DNA of 64,000 nt, taken from the NCBI GenBank assembly GCA_965243395.1, contig CBDEUS010000002.1, forward strand, positions 128,001 to 192,000. Direction: 5' to 3'. Positions within the stretch are counted from its first letter, which is position 1. The number at the start of each line of letters is the position of its first letter. The DNA is from Gammaproteobacteria bacterium. GTDB lineage: Bacteria > Pseudomonadota > Gammaproteobacteria > UBA4575. The notes below the pieces were generated by a model, which did not search any database, was not told the DNA's origin, and saw only the letters and a program-made list of their open reading frames with translations. The translations under genes were made by a program, and so were the position numbers. Of this stretch, positions 7,812 through 32,110 are shown piece by piece.

Positions 7812-8594
7812 CTATACCCAAGTGCTATTCAAGGTATCCCTAAAATAGTTATTTAAACCCTCAGCTTCAGCCTCAGAGCTTTTTTGAGCAAATTTTGTGT
7901 CCTCTAATCGATTTAATTCAGATTCAATAAACTCATTTAGTACTGTAATCTTTTCTGAAGTATCTTTCTCAAATCCAGATTTTTTTCGCTCTAGCAAGTT
8001 ATTTATGGCACTAAGAAGCTTATTGTCATCAACTAACTTTTCTATTAGTTTGGAAAATTCAGTGGGCACCACGCCATAATCATTTTCTATCCATTGCACT
8101 GCTAATAATGGGCGAAGAACATAAAAATATTTTTTTAAACGAACTTGTTCTTTCTGCAAATGCTCTTTATATGTTCTTTTAGCCATACTTAAATAATGAT
8201 AGGCGCATGAAACTGGTGAAAAACTTTTTGGGAGTAAGTTTTGAAACCCATCAGAAAATTTTTCCTTATCTTTATAGACAATAGGAGACCCTATCCACTC
8301 AATCAAAGGTGGATTAGATTTTCGTAACAATCCGAGTGCCTTTCTCAGATCCCAACCATTTATATCAAGCAAATCATCTATAGGTAATTCGATCACATCT
8401 CTTTTGTGTTCAAGATCAATAGATAGATACCACTCAGGTGGATGTATATAAATAAAACGTACGTCAAAATCACTATCTTTAGATGCAAACCCCCACGCTC
8501 GACTACCCGATTCACAGGCATACAAAACTTGAACATTATATTCATCTTCAATTTCATCAAGCTTTTGAAGGATCTCTTCTTTTCTTTCTATCAT
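7812..8594 (-). CDS. RlaP/YcgL-type DNA polymerase beta superfamily nucleotidyltransferase (RNA-repair associated)
   Basis: YACESGSRAWGFASKDSDFDVRFIY, GWDLRKAL, KKYFYVLRP. Confidence 0.9.
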   Translation of the reverse strand: MIERKEEILQKLDEIEDEYNVQVLYACESGSRAWGFASKDSDFDVRFIYIHPPEWYLSIDLEHKRDVIELPIDDLLDINGWDLRKALGLLRKSNPPLIEWIGSPIVYKDKEKFSDGFQNLLPKSFSPVSCAYHYLSMAKRTYKEHLQKEQVRLKKYFYVLRPLLAVQWIENDYGVVPTEFSKLIEKLVDDNKLLSAINNLLERKKSGFEKDTSEKITVLNEFIESELNRLEDTKFAQKSSEAEAEGLNNYFRDTLNSTWV

Positions 8595-8602
8595 AGGTAT
8601 AT

Positions 8603-8902
8603 CTAGAAAAAAGTTTTAACAGTTAAAACTATTCCTAAGATTGGTAGCAATAAAAGCCAAATAATAAATATAGTGGCAATTAATATATTAGCTAAATACG
8701 AAGACTCCACTCCTTCGTCTTCCCAATCTTCATCTGCACAAATTACAGATACAAAATCTGAATTAAACTCAACATTAGAATGTTTATTATCAATTGCGAT
8801 ATCAATCGCATCTTTTAGTAACATTAAACCATCCTTATTGCCTGCAATATTATCTTCATATCTTTCACTGTAAATTTTTACCCAAGCTGTTTCATTATAC
8901 AT
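8603..8902 (-). CDS. small hypothetical protein with C-terminal TM helix
   Basis: 99-aa ORF tightly packed between rtcB and the nucleotidyltransferase. Confidence 0.6.
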   Translation of the reverse strand: MYNETAWVKIYSERYEDNIAGNKDGLMLLKDAIDIAIDNKHSNVEFNSDFVSVICADEDWEDEGVESSYLANILIATIFIIWLLLLPILGIVLTVKTFF

Positions 8903-8916
8903 TCAACTACTCCTAA

Positions 8917-10113
8917 CTATCCTTTTACACATACAACTTGACGCAAAGTGTGTTCAACGCTTACTAAATCATTTTGGTTTTCCATCACCACATCAATATC
9001 TTTATATGCGCCAGGAATTTCATCTAACACACCTTTGTCTTTACGACATTCAACACCAGCCGTTTGCGCTTCAATATCTTCTTCATTGAAATGGCGTTTT
9101 GCTTTACCACGACTCATACGTCGACCTGCACCATGCGAACATGAACTAAATGATTCAGGGTTACCTTTGCCACGAACAATGTAAGATTTAGCGCCCATAC
9201 TACCCGGAATAATTCCAAGCTCATCCACACCAGCACGAATCGCACCTTTGCGTGTAATGTAAACATTTTCACCAAAATGGTTTTCCATAGACACATAATT
9301 ATGATGACAATTGATGGCTTCTTTAGTGATACCAAATTTCGGTAACACTTTTTTTAATGCATCAATTATCAAGCGCATCATTTCTTTGCGATTTTCCATT
9401 GCGTAATCTTGAGCCCAGTTCACTGCATTTACATAGTCATCAAAGTGCTCTGCCCCTTCAGTAAAATATGCTAAATCTTTATCTGGCAAATTATGAATAT
9501 GCTTTTGCATATCTTTTTGTGCTAATCGAATAAAGAATTGGCCAATAATATTCCCTACTCCACGGCTACCCGAATGAAGCATAATCCATACATCATTATT
9601 TTCATCTAAACAGATTTCAATAAAATGATTCCCACCACCAAGTGTGCCTAGTTGACGCACCCAAGTTTGATAAGGCTTTTTCTGCATCTTTAAAAGTTTG
9701 GGGTGTTTTTCTAGTAAGCGATCTAAACCGTCAGATAAAGGTCGTATAGTTGAATTGCGAGCTTTATCTGACTTATGCATATCAAAACCAACAGGTATTG
9801 CAACTTCAATAGCAGTACGCACTTTGCGTAAGTTATCTGGAAGATCATTAGCATTCATTGAAAGACGCAAAGCATTCATTCCACAACCAATGTCTACACC
9901 AACCGCAGCAGGAATAATTGCACCTTTACATGGAATTACCGAACCCACAGTCGCACCTTTACCAAAGTGCACATCCGGCATCGCCGCAATATGACTATGG
10001 ATAAAAGGCAACTGTGATAGGTTGCATAGTTGCTGGTAGGCTTCGTGCTCTATGTCATCAGTATAGATTTTTACTCGCACATTACCTTTGGTAATGACTT
10101 TTTTAATTGGCAT
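8917..10113 (-). CDS. rtcB: RtcB RNA ligase
   Basis: MPDVHFGKGATVG, VGVDIGCG, GTLGGGNHFIE, HSGSRG, PGSMG, SHGAGR. Confidence 0.97.
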   Translation of the reverse strand: MPIKKVITKGNVRVKIYTDDIEHEAYQQLCNLSQLPFIHSHIAAMPDVHFGKGATVGSVIPCKGAIIPAAVGVDIGCGMNALRLSMNANDLPDNLRKVRTAIEVAIPVGFDMHKSDKARNSTIRPLSDGLDRLLEKHPKLLKMQKKPYQTWVRQLGTLGGGNHFIEICLDENNDVWIMLHSGSRGVGNIIGQFFIRLAQKDMQKHIHNLPDKDLAYFTEGAEHFDDYVNAVNWAQDYAMENRKEMMRLIIDALKKVLPKFGITKEAINCHHNYVSMENHFGENVYITRKGAIRAGVDELGIIPGSMGAKSYIVRGKGNPESFSSCSHGAGRRMSRGKAKRHFNEEDIEAQTAGVECRKDKGVLDEIPGAYKDIDVVMENQNDLVSVEHTLRQVVCVKG

Positions 10114-10125
10114 ATGTCACCCTAA

Positions 10126-10367
10126 TTAATCTCTAAAATATTCATTTCTATTAGAACCATCATGTCGCTTTTTCTTCAAGCAACAATTCTTGAAATCTAC
10201 GCCCTGATCCACATACACATGGATCATTCCGGCCGAACTTCTCGCTAAGTTCTTTATTGCCATGAACGATTCTATTTCCTCGTTTAACGTTTGTTTCTGA
10301 TGGGAATCCTTTACGACGTTTACTCATACGCTCAAAAGGATTGATCCTTATTTTTAAATTTACACAT
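10126..10367 (-). CDS. small SEC-C (Zn-knuckle) protein split over three frames by two apparent +1 frameshifts
   Basis: Not in the ORF track. SD GAGGTG precedes ATG 10367. [11 protein letters not shown] ends at TTT-TGA; the +1 frame reads [14 protein letters not shown]...[14 protein letters not shown]; a second +1 at TTT-C gives [21 protein letters not shown]. Confidence 0.75.
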
Positions 10368-10393
10368 GTTGCACCTCACATTACTAAACTAAA

Positions 10394-10780
10394 TCAGTTG
10401 TATTTTTTGCGATAGTTACTGGTAAAAGGTTGCGCAACAATTTGATAATCATCTTGATAGCGTATCCTTCCAATTTCCTCACATTTAATCATATCTACAG
10501 CAATACCTTTATTTTGTATTACAGAAAAGAGCTTCCACATAACGCGTATATGCTCTTGTGCACTAGGTTTAAACCAACACAGGCAGCGATAGTTACCGGG
10601 TATCTTCAAAATAGGAGGCACAATTAAATTTCTATCAATCCATCTAAACACATATTGAACTTCTTCATATTCATAATCAGTGAATGAATTGTTGTATTTT
10701 AGCTTGTACGCAAGATGTATTAGGCCTTGTTCATAACGTGACCTCCTGTCTTGGCACAGCCCAATAAATCGTAAGTACAT
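10394..10780 (-). CDS. hypothetical protein
   Basis: 128-aa ORF co-oriented within the RNA-repair module. Confidence 0.65.
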   Translation of the reverse strand: MYLRFIGLCQDRRSRYEQGLIHLAYKLKYNNSFTDYEYEEVQYVFRWIDRNLIVPPILKIPGNYRCLCWFKPSAQEHIRVMWKLFSVIQNKGIAVDMIKCEEIGRIRYQDDYQIVAQPFTSNYRKKYN

Positions 10781-10826
10781 TTTTAATATCCATTTATATT
10801 ATTTCTCAAATTTAATTAAATGACGC

Positions 10827-10850
10827 AGGCCCTCAAATAATAGAGGGCCT
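10827..10850. terminator. GC-rich hairpin downstream of the SPFH gene
   Basis: AGGCCCTC-N8-GAGGGCCT. No clear U tract on the minus strand, so it may be a stabilising stem. Confidence 0.45.
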
Positions 10851-10869
10851 TTGTCAGTTTATACTCACG

Positions 10870-12018
10870 CTACCCATCAACTTTGATTTGTACCGTGTCT
10901 TTTAGGATGCCATCCAAACCTCCGAAGACAGTTAGTTTGTCTACTTTGTCAGTGACTTTTTCCAACGTCTCCAACTCTTTCAAGCGCATCAAGGTTGGGT
11001 TGTCATCCATCAATTTCGCAGTGTTCAACAATGAACGTGTAGCTGCAGTTTCTTCACGTCTTTTAATGACATTTGCTTGCGCCACTTTTTCTGCTTGAAC
11101 TACTTGGTTCAAGATATCTTTCATGTCGCCTGGCAAAATGACATCTTTCACGCCAACGCTGCGAATTTCGATACCGTATTCAGATACGTTTGCTTTAACA
11201 GATTCGTAGACGTATTTGTCTAGTTCATCTTTAGTTACAAGCAATGCATCCAAAGTGCGTGTACCAATTACCTGACGAAGTGCAAATTGCATTTCGCGGT
11301 AAATGTATCCAGCAAGGTCTACCAATTCATGACGCGCTTTAATTGGGTCACGAATTTGATATTGAGCTGACAAGTTTGCACGTAGGCTAACTTTGTCTTT
11401 TGTCAAAACCTCTTGACCTTGCACTTCCATGCTTTGCATTCGCAAATCAACTTGTTCAACTATTACGTTGCGGTTGTATTTCCAGTATGCGTACAAGCCT
11501 GGTTGCAATGATTCTTTTAATTCACCATCCACAACCAATAGGCCAACATAGTTGTCTGCAACTTCTGCGATGTAAATTGAATTAATCAATTCACTTGGTA
11601 CTTGTTTCGCACGTGTGTGCACAAACTGACCCACTTTATTTGCAGGCAATGCAAAATCTTCTGCAATATTTTGCACTTCAACTGTCATTTCAACTGGACC
11701 TTTCCAAAATAATTGGCGTGTACCAGGTGCTACAACAGTGCTCAATTGGCCACGTTGATAAACCAATCCAACTTCATATGCGTCGGTTTCAACAACTTGG
11801 AAGTATTTTGTTACTATCTCAGGTTGTTCTTTTACCAAGACATCCACATATTTGTGGTTGAATTGCGCTTCCGTTACATCATAAATCTCGACTTGAATTC
11901 GGCCGAAAATATCGAAATATCGATATACGCCTGGTTCAAGCACTTTTACAATGCTTCGGTTTTTCAAGTAAATTCCTCGCTCATGCTGCGCAATAACAAT
12001 TCTTTTAAATCCGAACAT
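10870..12018 (-). CDS. SPFH/band-7 (slipin) family protein
   Basis: VDLRMQSMEVQGQEVLTKDKVSLRAN, GVKDVILPG, RREETAATRSLLNTAKLM; SD AAGGAG. Confidence 0.9.
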   Translation of the reverse strand: MFGFKRIVIAQHERGIYLKNRSIVKVLEPGVYRYFDIFGRIQVEIYDVTEAQFNHKYVDVLVKEQPEIVTKYFQVVETDAYEVGLVYQRGQLSTVVAPGTRQLFWKGPVEMTVEVQNIAEDFALPANKVGQFVHTRAKQVPSELINSIYIAEVADNYVGLLVVDGELKESLQPGLYAYWKYNRNVIVEQVDLRMQSMEVQGQEVLTKDKVSLRANLSAQYQIRDPIKARHELVDLAGYIYREMQFALRQVIGTRTLDALLVTKDELDKYVYESVKANVSEYGIEIRSVGVKDVILPGDMKDILNQVVQAEKVAQANVIKRREETAATRSLLNTAKLMDDNPTLMRLKELETLEKVTDKVDKLTVFGGLDGILKDTVQIKVDG

Positions 12019-12044
12019 AATTACTCCTTATTAAATAAAGTTTC

Positions 12045-12610
12045 GGGAAATGCTCCACATATAAATTGCGGGTAAACTCCTGTTGTAGTAACGGGTCTAA
12101 AATCTTTCGCATGTCATTGCGATACCCCAACTATCGCTTTGAACATGTTTCAGTCTCTAGACTGGTTATCACAAGCTTGTGATCACGCAGGCAATCTACA
12201 TGTTGCGACATAAAAAACTCTCAACCGTAGTTGAGCTATTTGAAATGTCGCGGGAACATTTCCCTGGTTAGTGTTTTCACACAAAATGCGGATTCGAACC
12301 GCAGGCTTTCGCCATTACCAATGAACAACGTTTAAAGTTGTCGAAAGAACAGGAATCGAACCTGCAACATTTCCGTTATCAGCGGAATGCTCTCCCTTTG
12401 AGCTATCTTTCACTGGTGTATCGGACCACTTACAACTTTGTATACACATTGCAATCACCTTTCGGCTTAGCTTTTGTGCACAGGTCTGAATTCAAGAATC
12501 AGATCCGCTAAGTAAATAAATGTCTCTCAATACTCATGAACTCAATGTTTATAAAACATCGAATTACAATTCTTTAAATACAGGTGACCTGCCCCATTGC
12601 AGGCCACCAT
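12045..12610 (-). ncRNA. unassigned large structured RNA (~570 nt) with tRNA-like domains
   Basis: ORF-free on the sense strand. 12-bp long-range helix 12253-12264/12045-12056, GNRA hairpins, two TTCGA T-arms. Ends approximate. Confidence 0.7.
12338..12412 (-). tRNA. tRNA-Ile(GAU)-like domain embedded in the structured RNA; ends in ACAA, not NCCA
   Basis: TGAAAGA TA GCTC AAAGGGA GAGC A TTCCG CTGATAA CGGAA ATGTT GCAGG TTCGATT CCTGT TCTTTCG A CAA. Confidence 0.7.
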
Positions 12611-12636
12611 TTTTCACGCCCCCTTTCTCCTAAAAT

Positions 12637-13203
12637 TTAACGTCGCTCTTTAGGACATTGTGTTTTCAAGAACGCCATTTGGTCTGCCAAAATTTTGCGG
12701 TTAGATAAAATCAATCCTTCTGCATAATTTGGCTCATATGGAATTCCTAATAATGAAATTCCTATTCTTTCTGCCTCACTAGGCATTAAGCTATCTTTAC
12801 GTGCATTACATGCACGGCATGCTGTAACCACATTCATCCATGTGTTTTTCCCACCACGTGATAGTGGAATCACATGATCGCGCGTTAAGCGATTTCGAGA
12901 ATATTGATCACCGCAATACATGCACATGTAATCATCACGTCGAAACAATCTTGCATTTGTCAGTGCAGGCACTTCACGAATGTGGTCGTCTGATCGCATC
13001 ACACCATGTGTTGCAACAATACTGTTCACATCAATAAATGAACGAGTTCTTGTTCTGCGATTTACACCACCATGAATACGAAAAGAATTTGAACCCATTT
13101 CGTAAACAACTTGTTCTCGTGCATACACTAATGCTGCATATTCCCAGTTCATCCATTCAACTGGACGCCCAGCTACGTCTAAACGCAAAATTAAATTTTC
13201 CAT
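12637..13203 (-). CDS. HNH endonuclease (McrA/HNH_5-like)
   Basis: LFRRDDYMCMYCG...TRDHVIPLSRGG...NVVTACRACNARK. Confidence 0.92.
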   Translation of the reverse strand: MENLILRLDVAGRPVEWMNWEYAALVYAREQVVYEMGSNSFRIHGGVNRRTRTRSFIDVNSIVATHGVMRSDDHIREVPALTNARLFRRDDYMCMYCGDQYSRNRLTRDHVIPLSRGGKNTWMNVVTACRACNARKDSLMPSEAERIGISLLGIPYEPNYAEGLILSNRKILADQMAFLKTQCPKERR

Positions 13204-13231
13204 TTAACTTTTCTCTTTTATAAAGTTACTG

Positions 13232-13254
13232 TTTAACAATTTGGATGATTGAAG
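13232..13254. repeat. trailer arm of a 23-bp perfect inverted repeat bracketing the tRNA array
   Basis: TTTAACAATTTGGATGATTGAAG is the exact reverse complement of 16565-16587. Confidence 0.92.
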
Positions 13255-13263
13255 AGTTTAATT

Positions 13264-13340
13264 TGGTACGCAGCCCCAGATTTGAACTGGGAATCAAGTA
13301 GGTTTGAGCTACTCAGGTCTTCCAATTGCCTCAGCTGCGC
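13264..13340 (-). tRNA. tRNA-Leu(CAA), short variable loop
   Basis: Hand-folded cloverleaf, loop CT CAA AC, 5-nt V loop, A73, encoded CCA. Confidence 0.88.
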
Positions 13341-13352
13341 AAAAATTTAATT

Positions 13353-13429
13353 TGGTATCCCTGGCAAGATTCGAACTTGCAACATTCTGGTTTTAAGTCA
13401 GATGCGTCTTCCGGTTGCGCCACAGGGAC
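13353..13429 (-). tRNA. tRNA-Leu(UAA), short variable loop
   Basis: Loop CT TAA AA, V loop ATGTT, CCA. Confidence 0.88.
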
Positions 13430-13440
13430 GTAATGTAATT

Positions 13441-13518
13441 TGGTAGCCACCCTCGGATTTGAACCGAGATGCACCATGTTCTAAGCATGGTAGGTATGCC
13501 AATTCCCGTCAGATGGCC
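13441..13518 (-). tRNA. tRNA-Leu(UAG), short variable loop
   Basis: Loop CT TAG AA, V loop TGCAT, CCA. Confidence 0.88.
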
Positions 13519-13561
13519 AAAATTTTTATTTTTATAATTTAGTTATACATAAATTATGATT

Positions 13562-13637
13562 TGGTACCCCTAGTAAGATTCGAACTCACATCAACTGATT
13601 TAGAAGATCAGTGCTTTTCCAATTAAGCTATAGAGGT
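13562..13637 (-). tRNA. tRNA-Arg(UCU)
   Basis: Loop CT TCT AA, CCA. Confidence 0.92.
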
Positions 13638-13659
13638 AAAAAACTAATTGAATTATTTT

Positions 13660-13756
13660 TGGTACCCCAACCAAGATTCGAACTTGGATCTACCACTAAT
13701 CTGGTGCGTGAATCACGGGATATAAATCCGCTGCTTTACCGTTAAGCTATTGGGGC
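13660..13756 (-). tRNA. tRNA-Ile(UAU) with a 27-nt variable region
   Basis: Loop TT TAT AT; V region GATTCACGCACCAGATTAGTGGTAGAT; CCA. Confidence 0.85.
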
Positions 13757-13765
13757 AAAATTTTT

Positions 13766-13839
13766 TGGACACTCCGCTCAGAATTGAACTGAGTCCTCAA
13801 GGGTTGCAACCTTGCGTCTTGCCGATCGACCACGGAGTG
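13766..13839 (-). tRNA. tRNA-Cys(GCA)
   Basis: Loop TT GCA AC, U73, CCA. Confidence 0.9.
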
Positions 13840-13840
13840 T

Positions 13841-13915
13841 TGGCACATCCGGAAAGATTTGAACTTTCATCTTTGGGTTTGGAGGCCAATGTTCTGCCAA
13901 TTGAACTACAGATGC
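13841..13915 (-). tRNA. tRNA-Trp(CCA)
   Basis: Loop CT CCA AA, G73, CCA. Confidence 0.9.
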
Positions 13916-13917
13916 TC

Positions 13918-13993
13918 TGGCTGGGAGTCCTGGACTCGAACCAAGATCTCAAGAGTCAAAGTCTTGCGTCTTAACCAGTTAGACGAATTCCCA
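13918..13993 (-). tRNA. tRNA-Gln(UUG)
   Basis: Loop CT TTG AC, U1-A72, G73, CCA. Confidence 0.92.
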
Positions 13994-14002
13994 TTTTTGT
14001 TT

Positions 14003-14079
14003 TGGCGCGGTTGGAAAGACTCAAACTTTCATCTTCGACTTTCGTAGAGTCGTGCTTTATCCGATTAAGCTACAACCGC
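14003..14079 (-). tRNA. tRNA-Arg(ACG)
   Basis: Loop CT ACG AA; T loop TTTGAGT; CCA. Confidence 0.9.
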
Positions 14080-14087
14080 AAAAACTT

Positions 14088-14163
14088 TGGTAGCCCGAAT
14101 CCGATTCGAACGGATAACTTTCGCTTTGTAAGAACGACACTCTGCCAATTGAGTTATCGGGCT
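14088..14163 (-). tRNA. tRNA-Val(UAC)
   Basis: Loop CT TAC AA, CCA. Confidence 0.92.
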
Positions 14164-14171
14164 AAAATTTT

Positions 14172-14243
14172 TGGTAGTTACGGTTAGAATCGAACTAACA
14201 AGTCCAGGGTTATGAGCCCTAGCCGAAGACCACTTCCGTAACT
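14172..14243 (-). tRNA. tRNA-Met(CAU), initiator-like, with a minimal D arm
   Basis: AGTTACG GAAG TGGT CTTC GG CTAGGG CTCATAA CCCTGG ACTT GTTAG TTCGATT CTAAC CGTAACT A CCA. Confidence 0.8.
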
Positions 14244-14251
14244 AAAGTATT

Positions 14252-14325
14252 TGGTGGATCCAGTAGGAGTCGAACCTACCTCTGCGGGTTAAAAGCCCGC
14301 TGCACAACCGCTATGCCATAGATCC
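14252..14325 (-). tRNA. tRNA-Lys(UUU)
   Basis: Loop CT TTT AA, CCA. Confidence 0.9.
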
Positions 14326-14326
14326 T

Positions 14327-14402
14327 TGGCACGCCTGAAAGGAGTTGAACCTTTATCTCACTGGTTCGAAGCCAGTGGCTCTTCCAATTAAGCTACAGAC
14401 GT
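14327..14402 (-). tRNA. tRNA-Arg(UCG)
   Basis: Loop CT TCG AA, CCA. Confidence 0.9.
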
Positions 14403-14404
14403 AT

Positions 14405-14495
14405 TGGCGGAGAAGAACAGATTCGAACTGTTGAATGAAAAATTTCCATCCCTCCTTTAGCAAAGGAGTGCTTTAAACCACTCAGCCACTTCTCC
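14405..14495 (-). tRNA. tRNA-Ser(GCU)
   Basis: Loop TT GCT AA, long V arm, G73, CCA. Confidence 0.92.
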
Positions 14496-14555
14496 AATTT
14501 ATAATTTGCAGCGCTTCGCGATATTTAATTTGCGAGTAATACCCACTCGCAAGCG

Positions 14556-14631
14556 TGGGGTGAACTACCGGACTCGAACCGGTATCTACCAGATTCACGT
14601 TCTGGGGCTTTGCCATTAAGCTAAGCTCACC
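14556..14631 (-). tRNA. tRNA-His(GUG), with A32/C33
   Basis: G-1:C73 pair; loop AC GTG AA; CCA. Confidence 0.9.
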
Positions 14632-14642
14632 ATAATTATTTT

Positions 14643-14734
14643 TGGCGGAAGGCGGAGGGCACGATCCCCACCAACTAAAAAGCCAGCCACCAGTTTTCAA
14701 GACTGGGACACCCCCACTGGGTGAATCACCTTCC
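14643..14734 (-). tRNA. tRNA-Ser(UGA) with a non-canonical 8/4 fold
   Basis: Acceptor GGAAGGTG/CGCCTTCC (8 bp), T stem GGGG/CCTC (4 bp), D stem CACCC/GGGTG, loop CT TGA AA, long V arm, G73. Confidence 0.8.
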
Positions 14735-14749
14735 TTATATATGTAAATT

Positions 14750-14824
14750 TGGAGCGGATAATCGGATTCGAACCGATATTTATGGTTTGGAAGACCATCA
14801 CTCTGCCAATTGAGTTATACCCGC
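14750..14824 (-). tRNA. tRNA-Gly(UCC)
   Basis: Loop CT TCC AA, U73, CCA. Confidence 0.92.
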
Positions 14825-14829
14825 AGATT

Positions 14830-14907
14830 TGGTCTGAGTGGCTGGATTCGAACCAACGACCTCTCGCTTCCAAGGCGAGTACTCTGCCCAGGCTGAGCTA
14901 CACTCAG
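14830..14907 (-). tRNA. tRNA-Pro(UGG)
   Basis: Loop CT TGG AA, C1-G72, CCA. Confidence 0.92.
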
Positions 14908-14934
14908 AGAATTAATTAAATATAAAAAATTATT

Positions 14935-15010
14935 TGGTGCATCGAGTTGGACTTGAACCAACGACCACACGATTATCGGTCGTGCGCTCTACCAACTGAG
15001 CTATCGATGC
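14935..15010 (-). tRNA. tRNA-Ile(GAU), with C33
   Basis: Loop CC GAT AA, CCA. Confidence 0.9.
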
Positions 15011-15011
15011 T

Positions 15012-15086
15012 TGGTGTTCCTGACCAGAATTGAACTGGCATCTCGAGTTTGAAAGACTCGTGACCTCACCATTAGTCGACAGGAAC
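15012..15086 (-). tRNA. tRNA-Glu(UUC)
   Basis: Loop CT TTC AA, CCA. Confidence 0.9.
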
Positions 15087-15100
15087 TAATAAAATATTTT

Positions 15101-15176
15101 TGGCGGACCCGATCGGACTCAAACCGACATCCCCTTTATCGACAGTAAAGTGCTTTATCAATTAAGCTACGAATCC
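15101..15176 (-). tRNA. tRNA-Asp(GUC)
   Basis: Loop CT GTC GA, G73; D-loop GA with T-loop TTTGA (A19-U56 compensation). Confidence 0.88.
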
Positions 15177-15185
15177 AACTTTTGT

Positions 15186-16047
15186 TTAAAGGTTGAGACT
15201 ATGCCTTTAAAAATCACTCTTTTGTTGAAGTACCTAACGCATTGCTGTGCGATAGTTGCCAACGTGTCCACATTACCCTGGTTGCTCCAGCGATTATGTT
15301 AGTGATCATGACTGCTTTTTTTAAAGTGTAGCGATTCACTTGTCGCGTTAATCTATTCAGCTATTCACTTACCGAGAACCTTGCCAGGCTCTAAACGGAG
15401 GCTATCCGAACGTGCAATGAAGTAACTAAAGTTCTTTGGCTTGCGACCGCAGAATCTTCCATGTTCCCAAGTGGGCATGGACTTAAGTCATTTTCAATTA
15501 ACACCGAGACGCGTCTTTGCGTTTCACCGTATGGTGATCTATGTGGGAGTCGAACCCACGACCTATTGATTCTAAGTCAATCGCTCTACCAATCTGAGCT
15601 AAAAGATCAGGTACTACTAAGACGTGCACGTCTCAGTTGCTTCATTATTTTTTGAATAACGAAATACAACACGCCTTTTGTCTTTCCTCTGCCGAGTACT
15701 TAACCGAATATTCGGATCATGGCTTCCACCCATTTCCCTAATAATCTGCACAACCGCACTTGTCTGCAAAACTCGTACTATGTTGTACTACCTGTTATCT
15801 CTCGTAGTACGCAATCTAGTATCACGGGTTACAGCACTACCTGTATCTTTCTCACGACCCGTATTCCCAAGTAAACCTGGTACGTCAATCGTGGTACTTC
15901 CGCGTATTGCTTGGCTACTATTGCCGATTGAATTACGACAACATGGAGACCAGGCTTGCTTGGTTTGACCTACTTTGAAAAGTGGGCGAAATACCGTAGT
16001 CGTATTCCTTTCCTATCGTTGCCGATAGTTATCGTGCCAAGCCACAT
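15186..16047 (-). ncRNA. large structured RNA, probably GOLLD
   Basis: About 860 nt inside a tRNA array with no sense ORF and many hairpins (CTATCG GCAA CGATAG; CCGAATATTCGG; GTACTAC...GTAGTAC). Size and context match GOLLD. Family call from memory; ends approximate. Confidence 0.65.
15532..15608 (-). tRNA. tRNA with Leu(UAG) anticodon on a class-I body, nested in the GOLLD-like RNA
   Basis: GATCTTT TA GCTC AGATTGGTA GAGC G ATTGA CTTAGAA TCAAT AGGTC GTGGG TTCGACT CCCAC ATAGATC A CCA. Confidence 0.85.
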
Positions 16048-16050
16048 ATT

Positions 16051-16126
16051 TGGTGGAGGATCACGGATTTGAACCGTGCGCCTTCTGTTTGCAATACAGA
16101 CGCTCTGCCAACTGAGCTAATCCCCC
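16051..16126 (-). tRNA. tRNA-Ala(UGC)
   Basis: G3:U70, loop AT TGC AA, CCA. Confidence 0.93.
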
Positions 16127-16135
16127 AAACTTATT

Positions 16136-16210
16136 TGGCTGCGACGGTTGGACTCGAACCAACATTGCTTCGCTTAACAGACGAATGTTCTACCATTGAA
16201 CTACATCGCA
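16136..16210 (-). tRNA. tRNA-Asn(GUU)
   Basis: Loop CT GTT AA, G73, CCA. Confidence 0.92.
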
Positions 16211-16218
16211 ATTATATT

Positions 16219-16295
16219 TGGTGCATCAGGATGGATTCGAACCACCATCGCGTCGGGCTTCAACCGACCGCTCTACCCATTGGAGCTACCGATGC
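16219..16295 (-). tRNA. tRNA-Phe(GAA)
   Basis: Loop TT GAA GC, CCA. Confidence 0.92.
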
Positions 16296-16304
16296 AAAAA
16301 TAAT

Positions 16305-16389
16305 TGGTGGAGAGAGATGGATTCGAACCACCACGCTAATAATTAGCACTGGGTTACAGCCAGCGTGTCTCACCAATGACTGTCTCTCC
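16305..16389 (-). tRNA. tRNA-Tyr(GUA)
   Basis: Loop CT GTA AC, V arm GCTAATTATTAGC, CCA. Confidence 0.88.
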
Positions 16390-16401
16390 TAAAGTTAAAA
16401 C

Positions 16402-16477
16402 TGGAGCTGGTGATAGGCGTCGAACCTACAACCTACTGCTTACAAAGCAGTTGCTCTGCCATTTGAGCTACACCAGC
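16402..16477 (-). tRNA. tRNA-Thr(UGU), first tRNA of the array
   Basis: Loop TT TGT AA, CCA. Confidence 0.93.
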
Positions 16478-16564
16478 AAAAAATATGGGACAGTCGCACA
16501 TGCGCACAACTCAACTTAGGAGTTGGGCATAATTTAAAAATTAAATTACGCACTGCCCCGCCTA

Positions 16565-16592
16565 CTTCAATCATCCAAATTGTTAAAGAGCT
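16565..16592 (-). promoter_or_regulatory. boxA antitermination element overlapping the leader arm of the 23-bp inverted repeat
   Basis: AGCTCTTTAACA at 16592-16581 versus rrn boxA TGCTCTTTAACA; IR arm at 16565-16587. Confidence 0.85.
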
Positions 16593-16604
16593 ACTGCCAG
16601 GACT

Positions 16605-16639
16605 AAAAAACCCCGGAAGGCGAACCTAACCGGGGTTTT
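16605..16639 (-). terminator. intrinsic terminator (attenuator) between the promoter and the tRNA array
   Basis: AAAACCCCGG TT AGG TTCG CCT T CCGGGGTTTT TT. Confidence 0.88.
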
Positions 16640-16693
16640 ATTTTGATTCCGGAAGGCTCGCAACGCGCACCCTCCGAATTAATTTGGAAGGTA

Positions 16694-16849
16694 CTACGTA
16701 ATTGGGTCCTCTAAGGTGGCCCCAATAAAATTATTTGTGCCGAGATTCGATATCTCATGCACAGCAACACACCACAAAAAACACGACGGCTTTAATAACC
16801 GCTGCATTAGTTGCGCTGAAAAACTAGTTGTATATGTACTTCTATTCAT
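16694..16849 (-). CDS. putative leader peptide (51 aa, near-leaderless)
   Basis: Below the ORF-track cut-off. MNRSTYTTSFSAQLMQRLLKPSCFLWCVAVHEISNLGTNNFIGATLEDPIT*. ATG is 10 nt after the -10 box and the stop abuts attenuator segment 1. Confidence 0.65.
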   Translation of the reverse strand: MNRSTYTTSFSAQLMQRLLKPSCFLWCVAVHEISNLGTNNFIGATLEDPIT

Positions 16850-16887
16850 AGTGCGCGAAAGTCTAATGATATGGATTTTAAAGTCAA
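16850..16887 (-). promoter_or_regulatory. stable-RNA-type sigma70 promoter of the tRNA array
   Basis: TTGACT (16887-16882), 16 bp, TAGACT (16865-16860), then GC-rich discriminator TTCGCGCAC. Confidence 0.75.
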
Positions 16888-16937
16888 GTAATATTTTACT
16901 AAGTAAAGTGTGAATTTACGCCCAATTATCGGCCAAA

Positions 16938-17591
16938 TTAATCCTCAAGGGCTGACAAAAAAGAAATCATTGCTTTACGTTGTTTTTCATTTAAAGAGAG
17001 TGATGCAGAAATTATTTCTTGAATGTCCGTTAATTGTTTTTGAAATTCTTTATTGTTCAATTCTTTAGGTGCTTCATCCAACCAACCTACTGGTTTTTTT
17101 GCTGCAACTTCAATTCCTCTTGCAAACTCATCACTCATGCTTGGAATAAATGGTGTTTTGTAATGTTGTTGAAATAATTCCCATGATACTCCTGCTGATT
17201 CACATTCTTTTTTAGAACAAACCTTATTACCAGACTTTCCACATAGGGTCTTAAAGTTTGTAAATCTAACGATTTGAAGAAATGGGTCTAAGTTTTTTAC
17301 AGGAGCAGTGCCAAATAATAACCAATTGGTGGAATATCCAGTAACTTTGCTAATACCTTCAATGATTTTTAAATTTGGGTTTTGTGGAGCCGACGTTTCG
17401 TAAAGAGAAAGAAGTTGTTTTGACACCTTTAGTCTTCTTTTTTTCAATAATTGCATCATCTCACTTGGATCAATGCCATTAACTACACGTGCAAAACGCA
17501 CCCTTGATGAAACTGTAGCTAATTCATTTTTTCGTTTTGAACTACTAGTTGATTTTTTGGAGACACGACGTTTAGATTTATTTTTTACCAT
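16938..17591 (-). CDS. XRE/Cro-CI-type HTH protein with a basic N-terminal tail
   Basis: SRVRFAR...VSKQLLSLYET...NPNLKIIEGISKVTGYSTNWLLFG. Confidence 0.7.
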   Translation of the reverse strand: MVKNKSKRRVSKKSTSSSKRKNELATVSSRVRFARVVNGIDPSEMMQLLKKRRLKVSKQLLSLYETSAPQNPNLKIIEGISKVTGYSTNWLLFGTAPVKNLDPFLQIVRFTNFKTLCGKSGNKVCSKKECESAGVSWELFQQHYKTPFIPSMSDEFARGIEVAAKKPVGWLDEAPKELNNKEFQKQLTDIQEIISASLSLNEKQRKAMISFLSALED

Positions 17592-26904: not shown

Positions 26905-27088
26905 CCTGCTTCATAACTGTAGATACTCGTGCACGTTTCGTGTTTAATAGTAATTAAATCTTACACTTAAAACGTTTAATTAATTTTAAACGTGTCTAAT
27001 CGTAGCACGAAATCTTCCACCAAATGGTATGAAAAAAGTGCAAGGGTGGTGCAAAGTTCGCTACGAGGATTTTTTGGAGGATGACCAT

Positions 27089-28324
27089 ATGAGTAAACAT
27101 CAAATCCACTTAACCAAACACGATGTACAAAACTATCCACGACCCGAACAAGGAATGCTTCGATTGTGGGACAGCGAGATTGAAGGTTTGTATGTTTTAA
27201 TTCCAGCTGCAGGAAAACGAACCGCATACTTTCGTTATCGCATTCAAGGACGCCAACGTGATTTTCGCATTGGTCGCATCGATCGTCTGAGCTTGAAGGC
27301 AATACGTGATGAAGCCAAAAAGTGCGCCGCGAGAGTCGAGCTTGGCCAAGACATACAAGAAGCCAGAAATGCAGCTAAGCTTGCGCTACGTGAAGCCAAA
27401 AATAATCAAGGTGCGCCCAATCTCCAATTGTTTGGAGACTTCTATCAACACTATTACATCGATTATGCAAAAGCGACACTGAAAGATTATCGAAAACGTC
27501 TACGAGCCATCGAATTTAACTTTTCACAATGGTTTGATAAACGTTTAGATGAAATCAATGTGCCGTTAGTGGCTAGTTGGCGTAATCACAAACTGGCAAC
27601 ACCTGTTACAGTAGGCAAAGGCGACAATCAAAAACAACGTGAACGTACTACCGGCGCGATCAATCGACCGGTTGGCTATTTGAAAGCGCTACTCTCCGTT
27701 GCTTATGAAGAAGCGGAGCTTTTGGATCATCACCCTCTTGATCGACTCAAACCTTTGAAAGAACCTCGACACAAGCGTGATCGGTTCTTAACCAATGAAG
27801 AATTTAAACGTTTACGTAATAGTTTGCGCGGACGTGATGATTATCTACCGGTTTTAATAGAACTGGGTATTAACACAGGTTTGCGTTTGAATGAGATGCT
27901 CACCTTAGAATGGGGATCAGTTGATTTACGTAATCAGACGCTGACGGTGGAAAGTCATTACGCCAAAAGCAAACGCAAGCGAACCGTTCCACTCAATAAT
28001 TCGATTACCGCAGTCATACGTGATTGGAAACTTCGTACTCAACGCTTTGGTCCATGGGTATTCACCAATCCGAATACCGATAATCACTACGTCTCCATTT
28101 ACCGCGCATGGAATACAGCGATGCAAGAAGCCGGCATTGAAAACTTCGTGCGTCATGATTTACGCCGTACCTTTGGCAGTTGGCTCGCCGAACGCGGTGA
28201 GAGCATTTATGTGATTAAGAATTTACTCGGACACTCCAGTGTGAAAGTCACCGAAGAAAGTTATGCGTATCTACAAGACAAATCTCAACGCGATGCGGTA
28301 GAACGCCTTGAAGCGATCGCATAG
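27089..28324 (+). CDS. tyrosine integrase with N-terminal arm-binding domain
   Basis: LWDSEIEGL arm domain; TGLR, HDLRR, LGH, catalytic Y. Start chosen after SD GGAGG. Confidence 0.93.
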   Translation: MSKHQIHLTKHDVQNYPRPEQGMLRLWDSEIEGLYVLIPAAGKRTAYFRYRIQGRQRDFRIGRIDRLSLKAIRDEAKKCAARVELGQDIQEARNAAKLALREAKNNQGAPNLQLFGDFYQHYYIDYAKATLKDYRKRLRAIEFNFSQWFDKRLDEINVPLVASWRNHKLATPVTVGKGDNQKQRERTTGAINRPVGYLKALLSVAYEEAELLDHHPLDRLKPLKEPRHKRDRFLTNEEFKRLRNSLRGRDDYLPVLIELGINTGLRLNEMLTLEWGSVDLRNQTLTVESHYAKSKRKRTVPLNNSITAVIRDWKLRTQRFGPWVFTNPNTDNHYVSIYRAWNTAMQEAGIENFVRHDLRRTFGSWLAERGESIYVIKNLLGHSSVKVTEESYAYLQDKSQRDAVERLEAIA

Positions 28325-32035: not shown

Positions 32036-32110
32036 TGGAGGCCAGGGTCGGAGTTGAACCGACGTATTACACCTTGCTGGGGGTATGCATCACCACTCTG
32101 CCACCTGGCC
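32036..32110 (-). pseudogene. tRNA-Cys-like element with an aberrant anticodon arm
   Basis: GGCCAGG TG GCA GAGTGGTGA TGC ATACC CCCAGCAA GGTGT AATAC GTCGG TTCAACT CCGAC CCTGGCC T CCA. Confidence 0.75.

What the first reader, a model, noticed from the sequence alone, without database searches (positions are those of the whole stretch)
16605..16849. Five-segment leader-peptide attenuator with 'any stall = ON' logic
Seen on the minus strand after the leader stop: seg1 GTACCTTCC (16694-16686), seg2 CGGAGGGTGC (16676-16667), seg3 GAGCCTTCCGG (16659-16649), seg4 CCCCGGTTAGGTTC and seg5 GCCTTCCGGGGTTTTTT (terminator 16639-16605). CCTTCC recurs in segments 1, 3 and 5, so 1:2+3:4 (antiterminator) excludes 2:3+4:5 (terminator). 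Inference: a ribosome reaching the stop masks seg1 and causes termination, while a stall anywhere upstream, or no initiation, gives read-through. The 51-codon ORF contains all 20 amino acids and rare codons (AGA, CTA, CGG, ATA) with no single-amino-acid run. That fits a general translation sensor rather than a trp/his-type attenuator, though the composition alone is weak evidence.
Basis: partly seen in the sequence, partly recalled or inferred. Interest (0 to 1): 0.9.

Follow-up and report, generated by a model that had tools for sequence, protein, structure and literature searches.

The report
Ribosome-sensing switch before tRNA array
A short translated leader followed by competing RNA hairpins sits in front of a mobile block of about 26 tRNA genes and probably lets transcription through only when ribosomes fail to finish the leader: a known kind of switch found in a new place.

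Summary
On the minus strand, a promoter-like site is followed 10 nt later by a 51-codon ORF with no Shine-Dalgarno sequence. Its stop codon overlaps segment 1 of five segments that can pair as 1:2+3:4 or as 2:3+4:5, the second ending in a U-tract.

This is not a chance feature. 25 loci in 23 of 56 genomes of the order carry the same layout. Each has an open frame of 36-58 codons that ends at segment 1, while the peptide itself evolves neutrally. Both folds are conserved, with compensatory changes.

The window copy is a diverged paralogue of a single-copy chromosomal element. It heads an 8.6-kb module of tRNA array, GOLLD RNA, HNH, SPFH and RtcB genes, shared at about 92% identity with a genome of another genus.

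Metagenome relatives of the switch precede metG, with Met-rich leaders, and ABC exporter pairs.

The best reading is a ribosome-dependent transcription attenuator. A ribosome that reaches the stop codon favours termination, and a late or absent ribosome favours read-through. The closest known working analogue is the mycobacterial whiB7 uORF.

The "any stall = ON" logic and control of the tRNA array are inferred. No expression data could be obtained. I rate it a new variant of a known kind.

The parts
16860..16887 (-). Promoter-like site TTGACT-16 nt-TAGACT. It is followed by a GC-rich 10-nt stretch (ttcgcgcact, 16859-16850) that runs straight into the ATG.
   Evidence: 9 of 12 matches, not significant alone. 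35 of 38 bases are conserved in the G028 island copy, which reads TTGACA. The chromosomal paralogues have TTGCAA-16-TATAGT-tcgccgccg-ATG at the same relative place. The transcription start was not mapped.
16694..16849 (-). Leader ORF of 51 codons plus TAG, with no Shine-Dalgarno sequence (near-leaderless). It contains all 20 amino acids.
   Evidence: The G028 copy has 58 codons, with an in-frame 21-nt insertion.
16686..16694 (-). Segment 1 (GTACCTTCC). It starts at the G of the stop codon.
   Evidence: It pairs with seg2 (9 pairs, -13.8 kcal/mol).
16667..16676 (-). Segment 2 (CGGAGGGTGC). It can pair with seg1 or with seg3.
16649..16662 (-). Segment 3 (TTGCGAGCCTTCCGG region). It pairs with seg2 (13 pairs, -19.1 kcal/mol) or with seg4 (12 pairs, -18.9 kcal/mol).
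16621..16639 (-). Segment 4. It is the 5' arm of the terminator (AAAACCCCGG) plus TTAGGTTCG, which also forms the 3' side of the 3:4 antiterminator.
16605..16620 (-). Segment 5 (CCTTCCGGGG) and the run of six T. Together they form the 3' arm and U-tract of the intrinsic terminator.
   Evidence: 4:5 at -18.8 kcal/mol. 89 of 90 bases of the region 16605-16694 are identical in G028.
16478..16604 (-). Spacer between the terminator and the first tRNA. It holds CCCAACT (16527-16521), a motif also conserved after the terminator of the chromosomal paralogues. The scan found no promoter-like site here.
   Evidence: 107 of 127 bases identical to G028.
12340..16477 (-). Downstream genes presumed to be gated. 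There are 25 tRNA genes by ARAGORN, plus one more tRNA-like gene at 13663-13756 called only by Rfam, a GOLLD RNA (15190-15677) with an embedded tRNA-Leu, and an HNH endonuclease gene (12637-13203).
   Evidence: A terminator-like site at 12235-12220 follows the last tRNA.
8917..12018 (-). The rest of the horizontally shared module, on the same strand: an SPFH/Band-7 protein, a 128-aa protein and the RtcB RNA ligase.
   Evidence: The module shared with G028 spans window 8921-17558. Co-transcription with the array is not shown.
16938..17591 (-). 217-aa protein with a weak helix-turn-helix match, at the upstream end of the shared module.
   Evidence: HTH_3, E 0.0083, below the cut-off. Also.

Best explanation
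This is a ribosome-dependent (leader-ORF) transcription attenuator at the head of a mobile tRNA-array operon.

Transcription probably starts at or within a few bases of the ATG at 16849 (inferred, not mapped). A ribosome translates the 51-codon frame behind the polymerase. The stop codon overlaps seg1.

If the ribosome is at or near the stop when seg2 and seg3 emerge, seg1 is covered. Seg2 then pairs with seg3, seg4 pairs with seg5, and the polymerase terminates at the U-tract (16610-16605).

If the ribosome is late, stalled anywhere further upstream, or never started, seg1 pairs with seg2 first. Seg3 is then free to pair with seg4, the terminator cannot form, and transcription runs into the tRNA genes and the GOLLD RNA.

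Shown here: the ORF, the two alternative folds, and their conservation. Inferred: the transcription start, translation of the ORF, the timing, the sign of the response, and that the array has no promoter of its own.

The island leader holds all 20 amino acids with no codon run, whereas its chromosomal paralogues are Met-rich. The island copy is therefore more likely to read general translation progress than the supply of one amino acid.
For: (1) ORF conservation. In 25 of 25 loci from 23 genomes, an ATG lies 9-10 nt after the -10 hexamer. It opens a frame of 36-58 codons that ends 1-4 nt before or inside seg1. There are 0 in-frame stops against 114 and 82 in the other two frames. The mean chance that a shuffled sequence stays open is 0.041 per locus.

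(2) The peptide is not conserved as a protein. Differences by codon position are 90/122/123. Among codons differing at one base, 35 changes are synonymous and 128 non-synonymous. The two island copies differ by an in-frame 21-nt indel.

(3) Folding. With seg1 free, 25 of 25 loci fold as 1:2+3:4 before seg5 exists. All 25 fold with the terminator at full length.

(4) Pair counts.
- Antiterminated fold: 93.6% of cells paired on an alignment fitted to the other fold, against at most 49% for slid controls, with 3 pairs changed on both sides.
- Antiterminated fold on 44 distinct sequences: 93.5% paired, 12 of 17 pairs and 51 cells changed on both sides, against 11.2 +/- 2.7 cells in shuffles.
- Terminated fold: 98.4% paired, 5 pairs changed on both sides.

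(5) The attenuator is the best-kept part between the two island copies. It is 89/90 identical, against 146/156 for the ORF and 107/127 for the spacer.

(6) 26 of 26 distinct metagenome relatives also have an ORF of 21-79 codons ending 17-25 nt before seg2. Three of them precede methionyl-tRNA synthetase and have Met-rich leaders. That is the expected signature of ribosome-mediated attenuation.

(7) The scan found no promoter-like site between the terminator and the first tRNA.

(8) The same logic is published for the whiB7 uORF. There, efficient uORF translation gives the terminator, translation stress gives the antiterminator, and loss of the start codon raises basal expression (passages read in PMC10274678).
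Against: There is no transcript evidence. No RNA run holds the stretch, and nothing could be laid on the chromosomal paralogue.

The promoter match is weak and the transcription start is unknown. Without a Shine-Dalgarno sequence, the ORF is translated only if the mRNA is leaderless or nearly so. From recall, such mRNAs are usually translated poorly in Gammaproteobacteria. The switch could then be mostly ON.

Thermodynamics alone do not give the switch:
- With seg1 masked, 19 of 25 loci still prefer 3:4 in the prefix, so termination depends on the order of folding.
- In the window copy the estimated barrier for 1:2 to refold into the more stable 2:3 is only about 9 kcal/mol. That could erode the default-ON state.

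The covariation evidence has limits:
- Part of it comes from an alignment fitted to the tested structure.
- Part comes from metagenome hits chosen by a pattern that fixes several segments.
- The two island copies are nearly identical, so the window type has no independent replicate.

In 13 relatives of the ABC-exporter group, helix 1:2 is predicted to be weak, so the logic may not be uniform across the class.
Confidence: 0.65

Rival explanations
1. It is an amino-acid-specific attenuator like its relatives. It would sense Met-tRNA, or another single charged tRNA, rather than general translation.
For: The 23 chromosomal paralogues carry 2-8 Met in 36-56 codons. Three metagenome relatives with Met-rich leaders precede metG. 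The family may therefore have begun as a Met sensor.
Against: The window leader has only the start Met and one other, and the G028 copy only the start Met. It has no run of any codon and holds all 20 amino acids. The array it precedes carries no tRNA-Met.
Confidence: 0.1
2. It is a free-standing transcription unit: a small RNA or small-protein gene of about 250 nt with its own constitutive terminator. The tRNA array would be transcribed from elsewhere.
For: The terminator is strong, and the full-length minimum-energy fold always contains it. A gap of 128 nt lies before the first tRNA. A conserved motif (CCCAACT) lies beyond the terminator and could belong to a separate element. From recall, released attenuator RNAs can act in trans. 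The listing shows rnTrpL as an example (abstract start only).
Against: The second, mutually exclusive fold is conserved, with compensatory changes. A plain terminator does not need that. The peptide evolves neutrally. The scan found no promoter-like site in the gap, though that scan is crude. The same switch precedes metG and ABC exporter genes at short distance.
Confidence: 0.13
3. It is a drug- or nascent-peptide-specific sensor. A particular peptide motif in the leader would arrest the ribosome in the presence of a ligand or antibiotic, as in erm or ABC-F leaders.
For: Relatives precede pairs of ABC exporter genes. Their leaders share a peptide-level or RNA-level motif (SGPxxGSTGYVRLSF) and an ending of I-T-stop. 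The window leader also ends in P-I-T-stop.
Against: The window leader lacks that motif. Peptides of the order-wide set drift neutrally. The genes gated here are tRNAs, not a resistance factor.
Confidence: 0.07
4. It is a relic. The leader was carried along when the module formed and no longer regulates anything.
For: There are only two island copies, and they are closely related, so selection is hard to show.
Against: The attenuator is 89/90 identical, while the spacer next to it is 107/127. The frame survived a 21-nt indel and 10 substitutions.
Confidence: 0.05

Closest known systems
The whiB7 5' leader uORF attenuator of mycobacteria
   Same: Both have a long uORF of varied composition whose sequence drifts between species. 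In whiB7, efficient translation gives a rho-independent terminator, and translation stress of many kinds gives an antiterminator and read-through. Loss of the start codon raises expression. These points come from passages read in PMC10274678.
   Different: There is no sequence relation and the phylum differs. The whiB7 uORF is Ala-rich and gates a transcription factor. Here the gated genes are tRNAs and a GOLLD RNA, the uORF is near-leaderless, and five segments with a repeated CCUUCC motif are used.
Classical trp/his/leu/pheA leader-peptide attenuators of Enterobacteria (recalled textbook model). Rfam His_leader was tested.
   Same: Both have a translated leader, alternative hairpins, an intrinsic terminator, and a ribosome position that decides the fold.
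   Different: The classical type has four segments, with the leader stop inside the 1:2 region and a run of cognate codons. Without translation it terminates. The element here has five segments, no codon run in the island copy, and a predicted read-through without translation. Rfam His_leader scores 17.9 bits against a cut-off of 49.
Leaderless short-ORF attenuators of Actinobacteria (poly-Cys uORFs of mycobacteria; leaderless leader peptides of Corynebacterium)
   Same: The regulatory ORF starts at or next to the 5' end of the transcript. Only the abstract starts of 10.1101/834739 and PMC3890552 were seen, in the listing.
   Different: Those ORFs are short and rich in one amino acid, and they occur in a phylum where leaderless mRNAs are common. 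This one has 51 codons and is in a gammaproteobacterium.
uORFs that sense ribosome-targeting drugs (toiL of E. coli topAI-yjhQ; leaders of B. subtilis resistance loci)
   Same: Both are uORFs that report translation stress of several kinds. Only the abstract starts of PMC12121999 and PMC13689557 were seen, in the listing.
   Different: From recall, toiL acts through Rho rather than an intrinsic terminator. Those targets are toxin-antitoxin or resistance genes.
tRNA array units and GOLLD RNA of phages, prophages and mycobacterial plasmids
   Same: Both are dense arrays of 20 or more tRNA genes on mobile DNA with a GOLLD RNA among them. In some cases tRNAs sit in the GOLLD linker (passages in PMC12286853). 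Abstract starts of PMC4758250, PMC5966550 and PMC12803027 were seen.
   Different: None of the texts I saw mentions a translated leader or an attenuator in front of such an array.

Membership tests
Ribosome-dependent (leader-ORF) transcription attenuator, general kind | An upstream ORF kept open by selection while its product is not conserved | tested here: met
   25 of 25 loci are open, with 0 in-frame stops against 114 and 82 in the other frames. Codon-position differences are 90/122/123, with 35 synonymous and 128 non-synonymous single-base changes.
Ribosome-dependent (leader-ORF) transcription attenuator, general kind | Two mutually exclusive RNA folds, one of them an intrinsic terminator with a U-tract | tested here: met
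.
Ribosome-dependent (leader-ORF) transcription attenuator, general kind | The ORF's end is placed so that a ribosome occludes one of the competing segments | tested here: met
   The stop codon overlaps or lies 1-4 nt before seg1 in 25 of 25 loci. It lies 17-25 nt before seg2 in 26 of 26 metagenome relatives. The reach of a ribosome on mRNA is recalled, not measured here.
Ribosome-dependent (leader-ORF) transcription attenuator, general kind | Termination and read-through respond to translation of the leader | not testable with these tools
   No RNA run holds the stretch and nothing was laid.
trp/his-type amino-acid attenuator | A run or strong excess of codons for the amino acid that is sensed | tested here: not met
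   The window leader has all 20 amino acids, no run, and 2 Met. The chromosomal paralogues (2-8 Met) and the metG relatives do show a Met excess.
trp/his-type amino-acid attenuator | Match to a curated Rfam leader family | tested here: not met
   His_leader scores 17.9 bits against a cut-off of 49, E 6.7. No other family matches.
whiB7-type translation-stress uORF attenuator | A long uORF of varied composition, where translation to the end gives the terminator | tested here: inconclusive
   The composition and the fold logic fit. The response itself was not tested. There is no homology and a different gene is gated.
GOLLD RNA (neighbour, not the finding itself) | Rfam RF02032 score above the gathering cut-off | tested here: met
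   153.5 bits against 150 in the window, and 155.8 in G028.
ArfA-like ribosome rescue factor (for the small basic protein downstream of the chromosomal paralogues; the resemblance is recalled) | Sequence match to a known rescue factor family or solved structure | tested here: not met
   Pfam and NCBIfam give no family at E up to 10. A PDB profile search gives only a chance hit at E 1.6. All names that sources gave among the 120 homologues listed, of 286 found, read 'hypothetical'.

The most novel reading that the evidence does not exclude
The 8.6-kb module is a self-contained, horizontally mobile 'translation rescue' cassette. A near-leaderless uORF containing every amino acid measures whether ribosomes can still finish a message. 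Only when they cannot does it release transcription of a spare set of about 26 tRNAs with a GOLLD RNA, possibly together with the RtcB ligase downstream. Candidate triggers are tRNA cleavage by toxins or phage defence, starvation, or ribosome poisons. This would be the first attenuator shown to put tRNA genes under direct feedback from translation. It would also give GOLLD a defined induction signal.
Probability: 0.3. Interest if true: 0.8.

Novelty: new variant of a known kind. Interest (0 to 1): 0.6.

Why it matters
From recall, tRNA genes are generally thought to be controlled at the promoter, by growth rate and the stringent response. A translated leader that gates a whole spare tRNA set would add a direct feedback from ribosome progress to tRNA supply. 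It would also explain how a mobile tRNA array can be kept silent in a host that has exactly one gene per anticodon until it is needed.

It would give an experimental handle on GOLLD RNA, whose function is unknown, because the inducing condition could be predicted.

Separately, the work uncovers an RNA switch class that no Rfam 15 family matched. It is single-copy in 23 of 56 genomes of one gammaproteobacterial order. Relatives lie ahead of metG and ABC exporter genes in metagenomes. All share the GGAAGG/CCUUCC exchange.

Tried and rejected
- **Rfam.** No family covers the element in the window or in related loci.
- **Genome contigs pattern scan.** The pattern was too loose. I did not analyse these loci further.
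- **Viral contigs.** There were 6 pattern hits. None passed the covariance model.
- **Phage and plasmid collections.** Only tRNA-Thr and RtcB/tRNA pieces matched.
- **Expression.** No RNA holder is listed. Read laying on the chromosomal paralogue with three runs guessed to be RNA and one guessed to be DNA laid nothing (after four unanswered tries). I draw nothing from them.
- **ArfA idea** for the downstream small basic protein. Not supported.
- **ESM Atlas** on the 75-aa protein. Best score 0.75, which is uninformative.
- **Idea that the leader uses codons read only by island tRNAs.** Rejected. Every island anticodon also has a host gene. The leader also uses codons such as TCA, TCG, CTC, GGC and ACC, whose usual tRNAs are not in the array.
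- **Idea that the hairpin plus T-run inside the ORF (16802-16776) is an early terminator.** The T-run is interrupted in G028, so I set this aside.
- **Literature.** The searches showed no description of a leader-ORF attenuator before a tRNA array, or of a metG leader of this form. The library lacks most subscription journals, and supplements were closed.

Full report
**1. What is there**

Read on the minus strand, the region begins with a promoter-like site, TTGACT-16 nt-TAGACT, at 16887-16860. A GC-rich 10-nt stretch follows, then the ATG at 16849. There is no Shine-Dalgarno sequence.

The ORF runs for 51 codons to TAG at 16696-16694. CCTTCC occurs at 16691, 16656 and 16620. This is the only triple of that hexamer within 90 nt on one strand in the whole 2.58-Mb genome.

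The 258-nt transcript folds far better than shuffles (z -4.43, 0 of 200 shuffles as good).

The simple terminator scan did not list the 16639-16605 hairpin. RNAfold gives it a 10-pair stem with an inner AGG/CCU helix capped by UUCG, at -18.8 kcal/mol.

**2. What lies downstream**

128 nt after the U-tract begins an array of 25 tRNA genes (ARAGORN). Rfam adds one more tRNA-like gene and a GOLLD RNA at 15190-15677.

An HNH endonuclease gene and another tRNA-Ile follow. A terminator-like site lies at 12235-12220. Beyond it, on the same strand, are SPFH, a 128-aa protein, RtcB and RlaP.

The scan found no promoter-like site between the leader's terminator and the first tRNA.

**3. Relatives**

A DNA search of relatives found two things:
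- A 90%-identical copy in G028, a genome of another genus.
- Weaker matches, covering only the last 90 nt or so, in nine further genomes.

I built a covariance model from these and ran it over all 56 genomes of the order, which holds a single family. It finds the complete element in 23 genomes, at 25 loci:
- All 15 genomes of the window's genus have it.
- Six other genera also have it.
- It was not found in three genera (0 of 13, 0 of 16 and 0 of 3 genomes).
- In one further genus (1 genome) only a terminator-like partial match was found.

G000 and G028 each have two copies. One is a chromosomal copy in a syntenic place. The other is the copy heading the tRNA array.

The stretch shared by the two islands is window 8921-17558, at about 92-93% identity, with the same tRNA order. 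The window element is therefore a diverged paralogue of an order-wide, single-copy element that was recruited to a mobile module.

**4. The ORF is real as a frame, not as a protein**

In all 25 loci, an ATG lies 9-10 nt after a conserved -10 hexamer. In the chromosomal copies the sequence is TATAGT tcgccgccg ATG. This ATG opens a frame of 36-58 codons that ends 1-4 nt before seg1 or inside it.

There are no in-frame stops, against 114 and 82 in the other two frames. A shuffled sequence stays open with a mean probability of 0.041 per locus.

The peptide is not under purifying selection. Differences by codon position are 90/122/123. Among single-base codon changes, 35 are synonymous and 128 non-synonymous. 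The two island copies differ by an in-frame 21-nt insertion.

This pattern is what is expected of a leader whose translation matters and whose product does not.

From recall, the short GC-rich stretch between the -10 hexamer and the ATG resembles the discriminators of stringently controlled rRNA and tRNA promoters. It would make the mRNA leaderless. The transcription start is not mapped.

**5. The two folds**

RNAalifold on 11 sequences gives 2:3 plus the terminator as the consensus.

Folding each of the 25 loci gives:
- Before seg5 exists and with seg1 free, 25 of 25 form 1:2+3:4.
- At full length, 25 of 25 form the terminator.
- With the stop codon and the next 12 nt masked, 6 of 25 switch to 2:3 in the prefix. 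Both island copies are among these 6.
- The other 19 keep 3:4 as the minimum-energy fold, so termination there must rely on 2:3 forming first.

In the window copy the four helices are well balanced: 1:2 at -13.8, 2:3 at -19.1, 3:4 at -18.9 and 4:5 at -18.8 kcal/mol.

A path search puts the barrier for 1:2 to refold into 2:3 at about 9 kcal/mol in the window copy and about 12 in chromosomal copies. This is a rough figure. It suggests that the default-ON state is a kinetic trap, and that the trap is leakier in the window copy.

**6. Pair counts**

- Alignment fitted to the terminated fold (A2): the antiterminated fold still pairs in 93.6% of cells, against at most 49% when partners are slid. 3 pairs change on both sides.
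- 44 distinct sequences aligned to a model of the antiterminated fold (A5): 93.5% paired. 12 of 17 pairs and 51 cells change on both sides, against 11.2 +/- 2.7 cells in shuffles. This alignment leans towards the structure tested.
- Terminated fold (A6): 98.4% paired, mostly invariant, with 5 pairs changed on both sides.

The metagenome members were picked by a pattern that fixes GGARGGT, CCTTCCG and AACCCCGG, so invariance in those segments is partly by construction.

The clearest compensation is between types. Seg3/seg4 reads:
- GCTCAC/GTGAGC in chromosomal copies.
- GTTCAC/GTGAAC in L143.
- GCGAGCC/GGTTCGC in the window.
- GGCCTTCACC/GGTGAGGCC in L189.

**7. A wider class**

The pattern scan of metagenome contigs, filtered with the model, gave 31 loci with 26 distinct elements. 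Every one has an ORF of 21-79 codons ending 17-25 nt before seg2.
- Seven are of the order's chromosomal type.
- Three GC-rich ones sit directly upstream of methionyl-tRNA synthetase and have short Met-rich leaders.
- About 15 precede pairs of ABC exporter genes.

In the ABC-exporter group, helix 1:2 contains a tandem G-A and is predicted to be weak. As a result, only 35 of 50 distinct sequences give 1:2+3:4 in the free prefix. The 15 misses break down as:
- 12 members of that group.
- L238.
- L136 and L198, where my script's marker for seg4 fell on seg5.

The metG cases are the strongest outside support that this architecture works by ribosome stalling. The chromosomal leaders of the order are themselves Met-rich, with 2-8 Met.

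**8. General or specific?**

Only the two island leaders contain all 20 amino acids. The chance is about 0.02 for 51 residues and 0.04 for 58 residues of proteome composition. The two copies are not independent.

The island leaders have lost the Met excess, and the array behind them has no tRNA-Met. The host has one tRNA gene per anticodon outside the island, so the array roughly doubles the dosage for 22 anticodons.

I rejected the idea that the leader uses codons decoded only by island tRNAs.

The generalist reading is therefore plausible and coherent, but the evidence for it is thin.

**9. Known relatives in function**

Efficient uORF translation gives a rho-independent terminator. Translation stress gives an antiterminator. 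The composition of the uORF sets which starvations are sensed. A start-codon loss raises expression (passages read, PMC10274678).

Leaderless regulatory ORFs and drug-sensing uORFs are also in print, though I saw only abstract starts in listings.

GOLLD RNAs are known to lie near tRNA islands of phages and prophages, sometimes with tRNAs in their linker (passages, PMC12286853).

In the searches, I found no report of a translated leader or attenuator before a tRNA array. No Rfam family covers the element in any sequence I scanned.

**10. What could not be done**

No RNA run holds the stretch, and nothing could be laid on the chromosomal paralogue. The transcription start, the 3' end, translation of the ORF and the response itself are therefore all untested.

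Supplements of papers were closed and may hold relevant uORF lists.

**11. Verdict**

The element is best read as a ribosome-dependent attenuator with inverted default, meaning read-through unless a ribosome arrives at the stop codon (confidence about 0.65).

As a mechanism it is a new variant of a known kind. Three things are new:
- The class itself, which no Rfam family matched.
- Its near-leaderless long uORF in a gammaproteobacterium.
- Above all, its position in front of a mobile tRNA array with GOLLD.

Noticed in passing
window 15190-15677 (-): A GOLLD RNA (Rfam RF02032, 153.5 bits against a cut-off of 150) lies inside the tRNA array, with tRNA-Leu(TAG) embedded at 15532-15608. The copy in G028 scores 155.8. 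The roughly 370 nt between it and tRNA-Ala (15678-16050) may be its variable 5' half.
   Followed up: partly
window 8921-17558: An 8.6-kb module (HTH protein, leader, tRNA array with GOLLD, HNH, tRNA-Ile, SPFH, a 128-aa protein, RtcB) is about 92-93% identical to a stretch in G028, a genome of another genus. The chromosomal leader loci of the two genomes are far more diverged, so the module was transferred recently.
   Followed up: partly
whole genome G000: The genome has 61 tRNA genes. 25 are in the island. The other 36 are one per anticodon, with three for Met. The island duplicates 22 host anticodons and carries none for Met.
   Followed up: partly
window 13663-13756 (-): A 94-nt tRNA-like gene is called by Rfam (55.3 bits). 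ARAGORN misses it unless introns are allowed, and then calls an unlikely Asp(atc). It has a long extra arm or insert, and its identity is unresolved.
   Followed up: partly
G000:C2:740347-740437 (L145) and 22 other genomes: The chromosomal paralogue of the leader precedes a conserved set of small proteins of unknown function. These are a 72-75-aa protein (..FMFFLSGKLWYRTESGFKFPVPIKG..), a 76-aa paralogue, a roughly 70-aa basic protein (..RRNPLHNHPLLSKGGVHRK..KKEWLPQ) and then a BON-OmpA protein. All names that sources gave among the 120 homologues listed for the basic protein, of 286 found, read 'hypothetical'.
   Followed up: partly
L145 and other chromosomal loci, after the terminator; window 16527-16521: A conserved motif, CCCAACTAGAGGA, lies between the terminator and the ribosome-binding site of the downstream gene in most chromosomal loci. 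CCCAACT also occurs in the window's spacer. Its role is unknown.
   Followed up: no
metagenome loci L189, L213, L238: The same switch in GC-rich contigs lies directly upstream of methionyl-tRNA synthetase. The leaders there are short and Met-rich (for example ..NTMMSMATAVG-stop). No Rfam family matched the switch in the loci I scanned; L189, L213 and L238 themselves were not scanned against Rfam. My literature searches found no description of a metG leader attenuator of this form.
   Followed up: partly
metagenome loci L169, L170, L171, L183, L187, L196, L197, L203, L207, L208, L210, L218, L223, L231, L233: A related group precedes pairs of ABC exporter genes (where enough downstream sequence was held). 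Their leaders of 41-79 codons share a motif (SGPxxGSTGYVRLSF) and end in I-T-stop inside seg1 (AACCUGACGAA). After the terminator, a further hairpin (GCCCCG..AAGGGGC) appears to sequester the ribosome-binding site.
   Followed up: partly
window 7812-10113 (-): The RNA-repair genes RtcB (8917-10113) and RlaP (7812-8594) lie just beyond the tRNA array. RlaP is outside the stretch shared with G028.
   Followed up: no
window 27029-28324 (+) and 32039-32110 (-): A phage-type integrase gene and a tRNA gene lie about 10-15 kb from the module. The island's boundaries were not determined.
   Followed up: no
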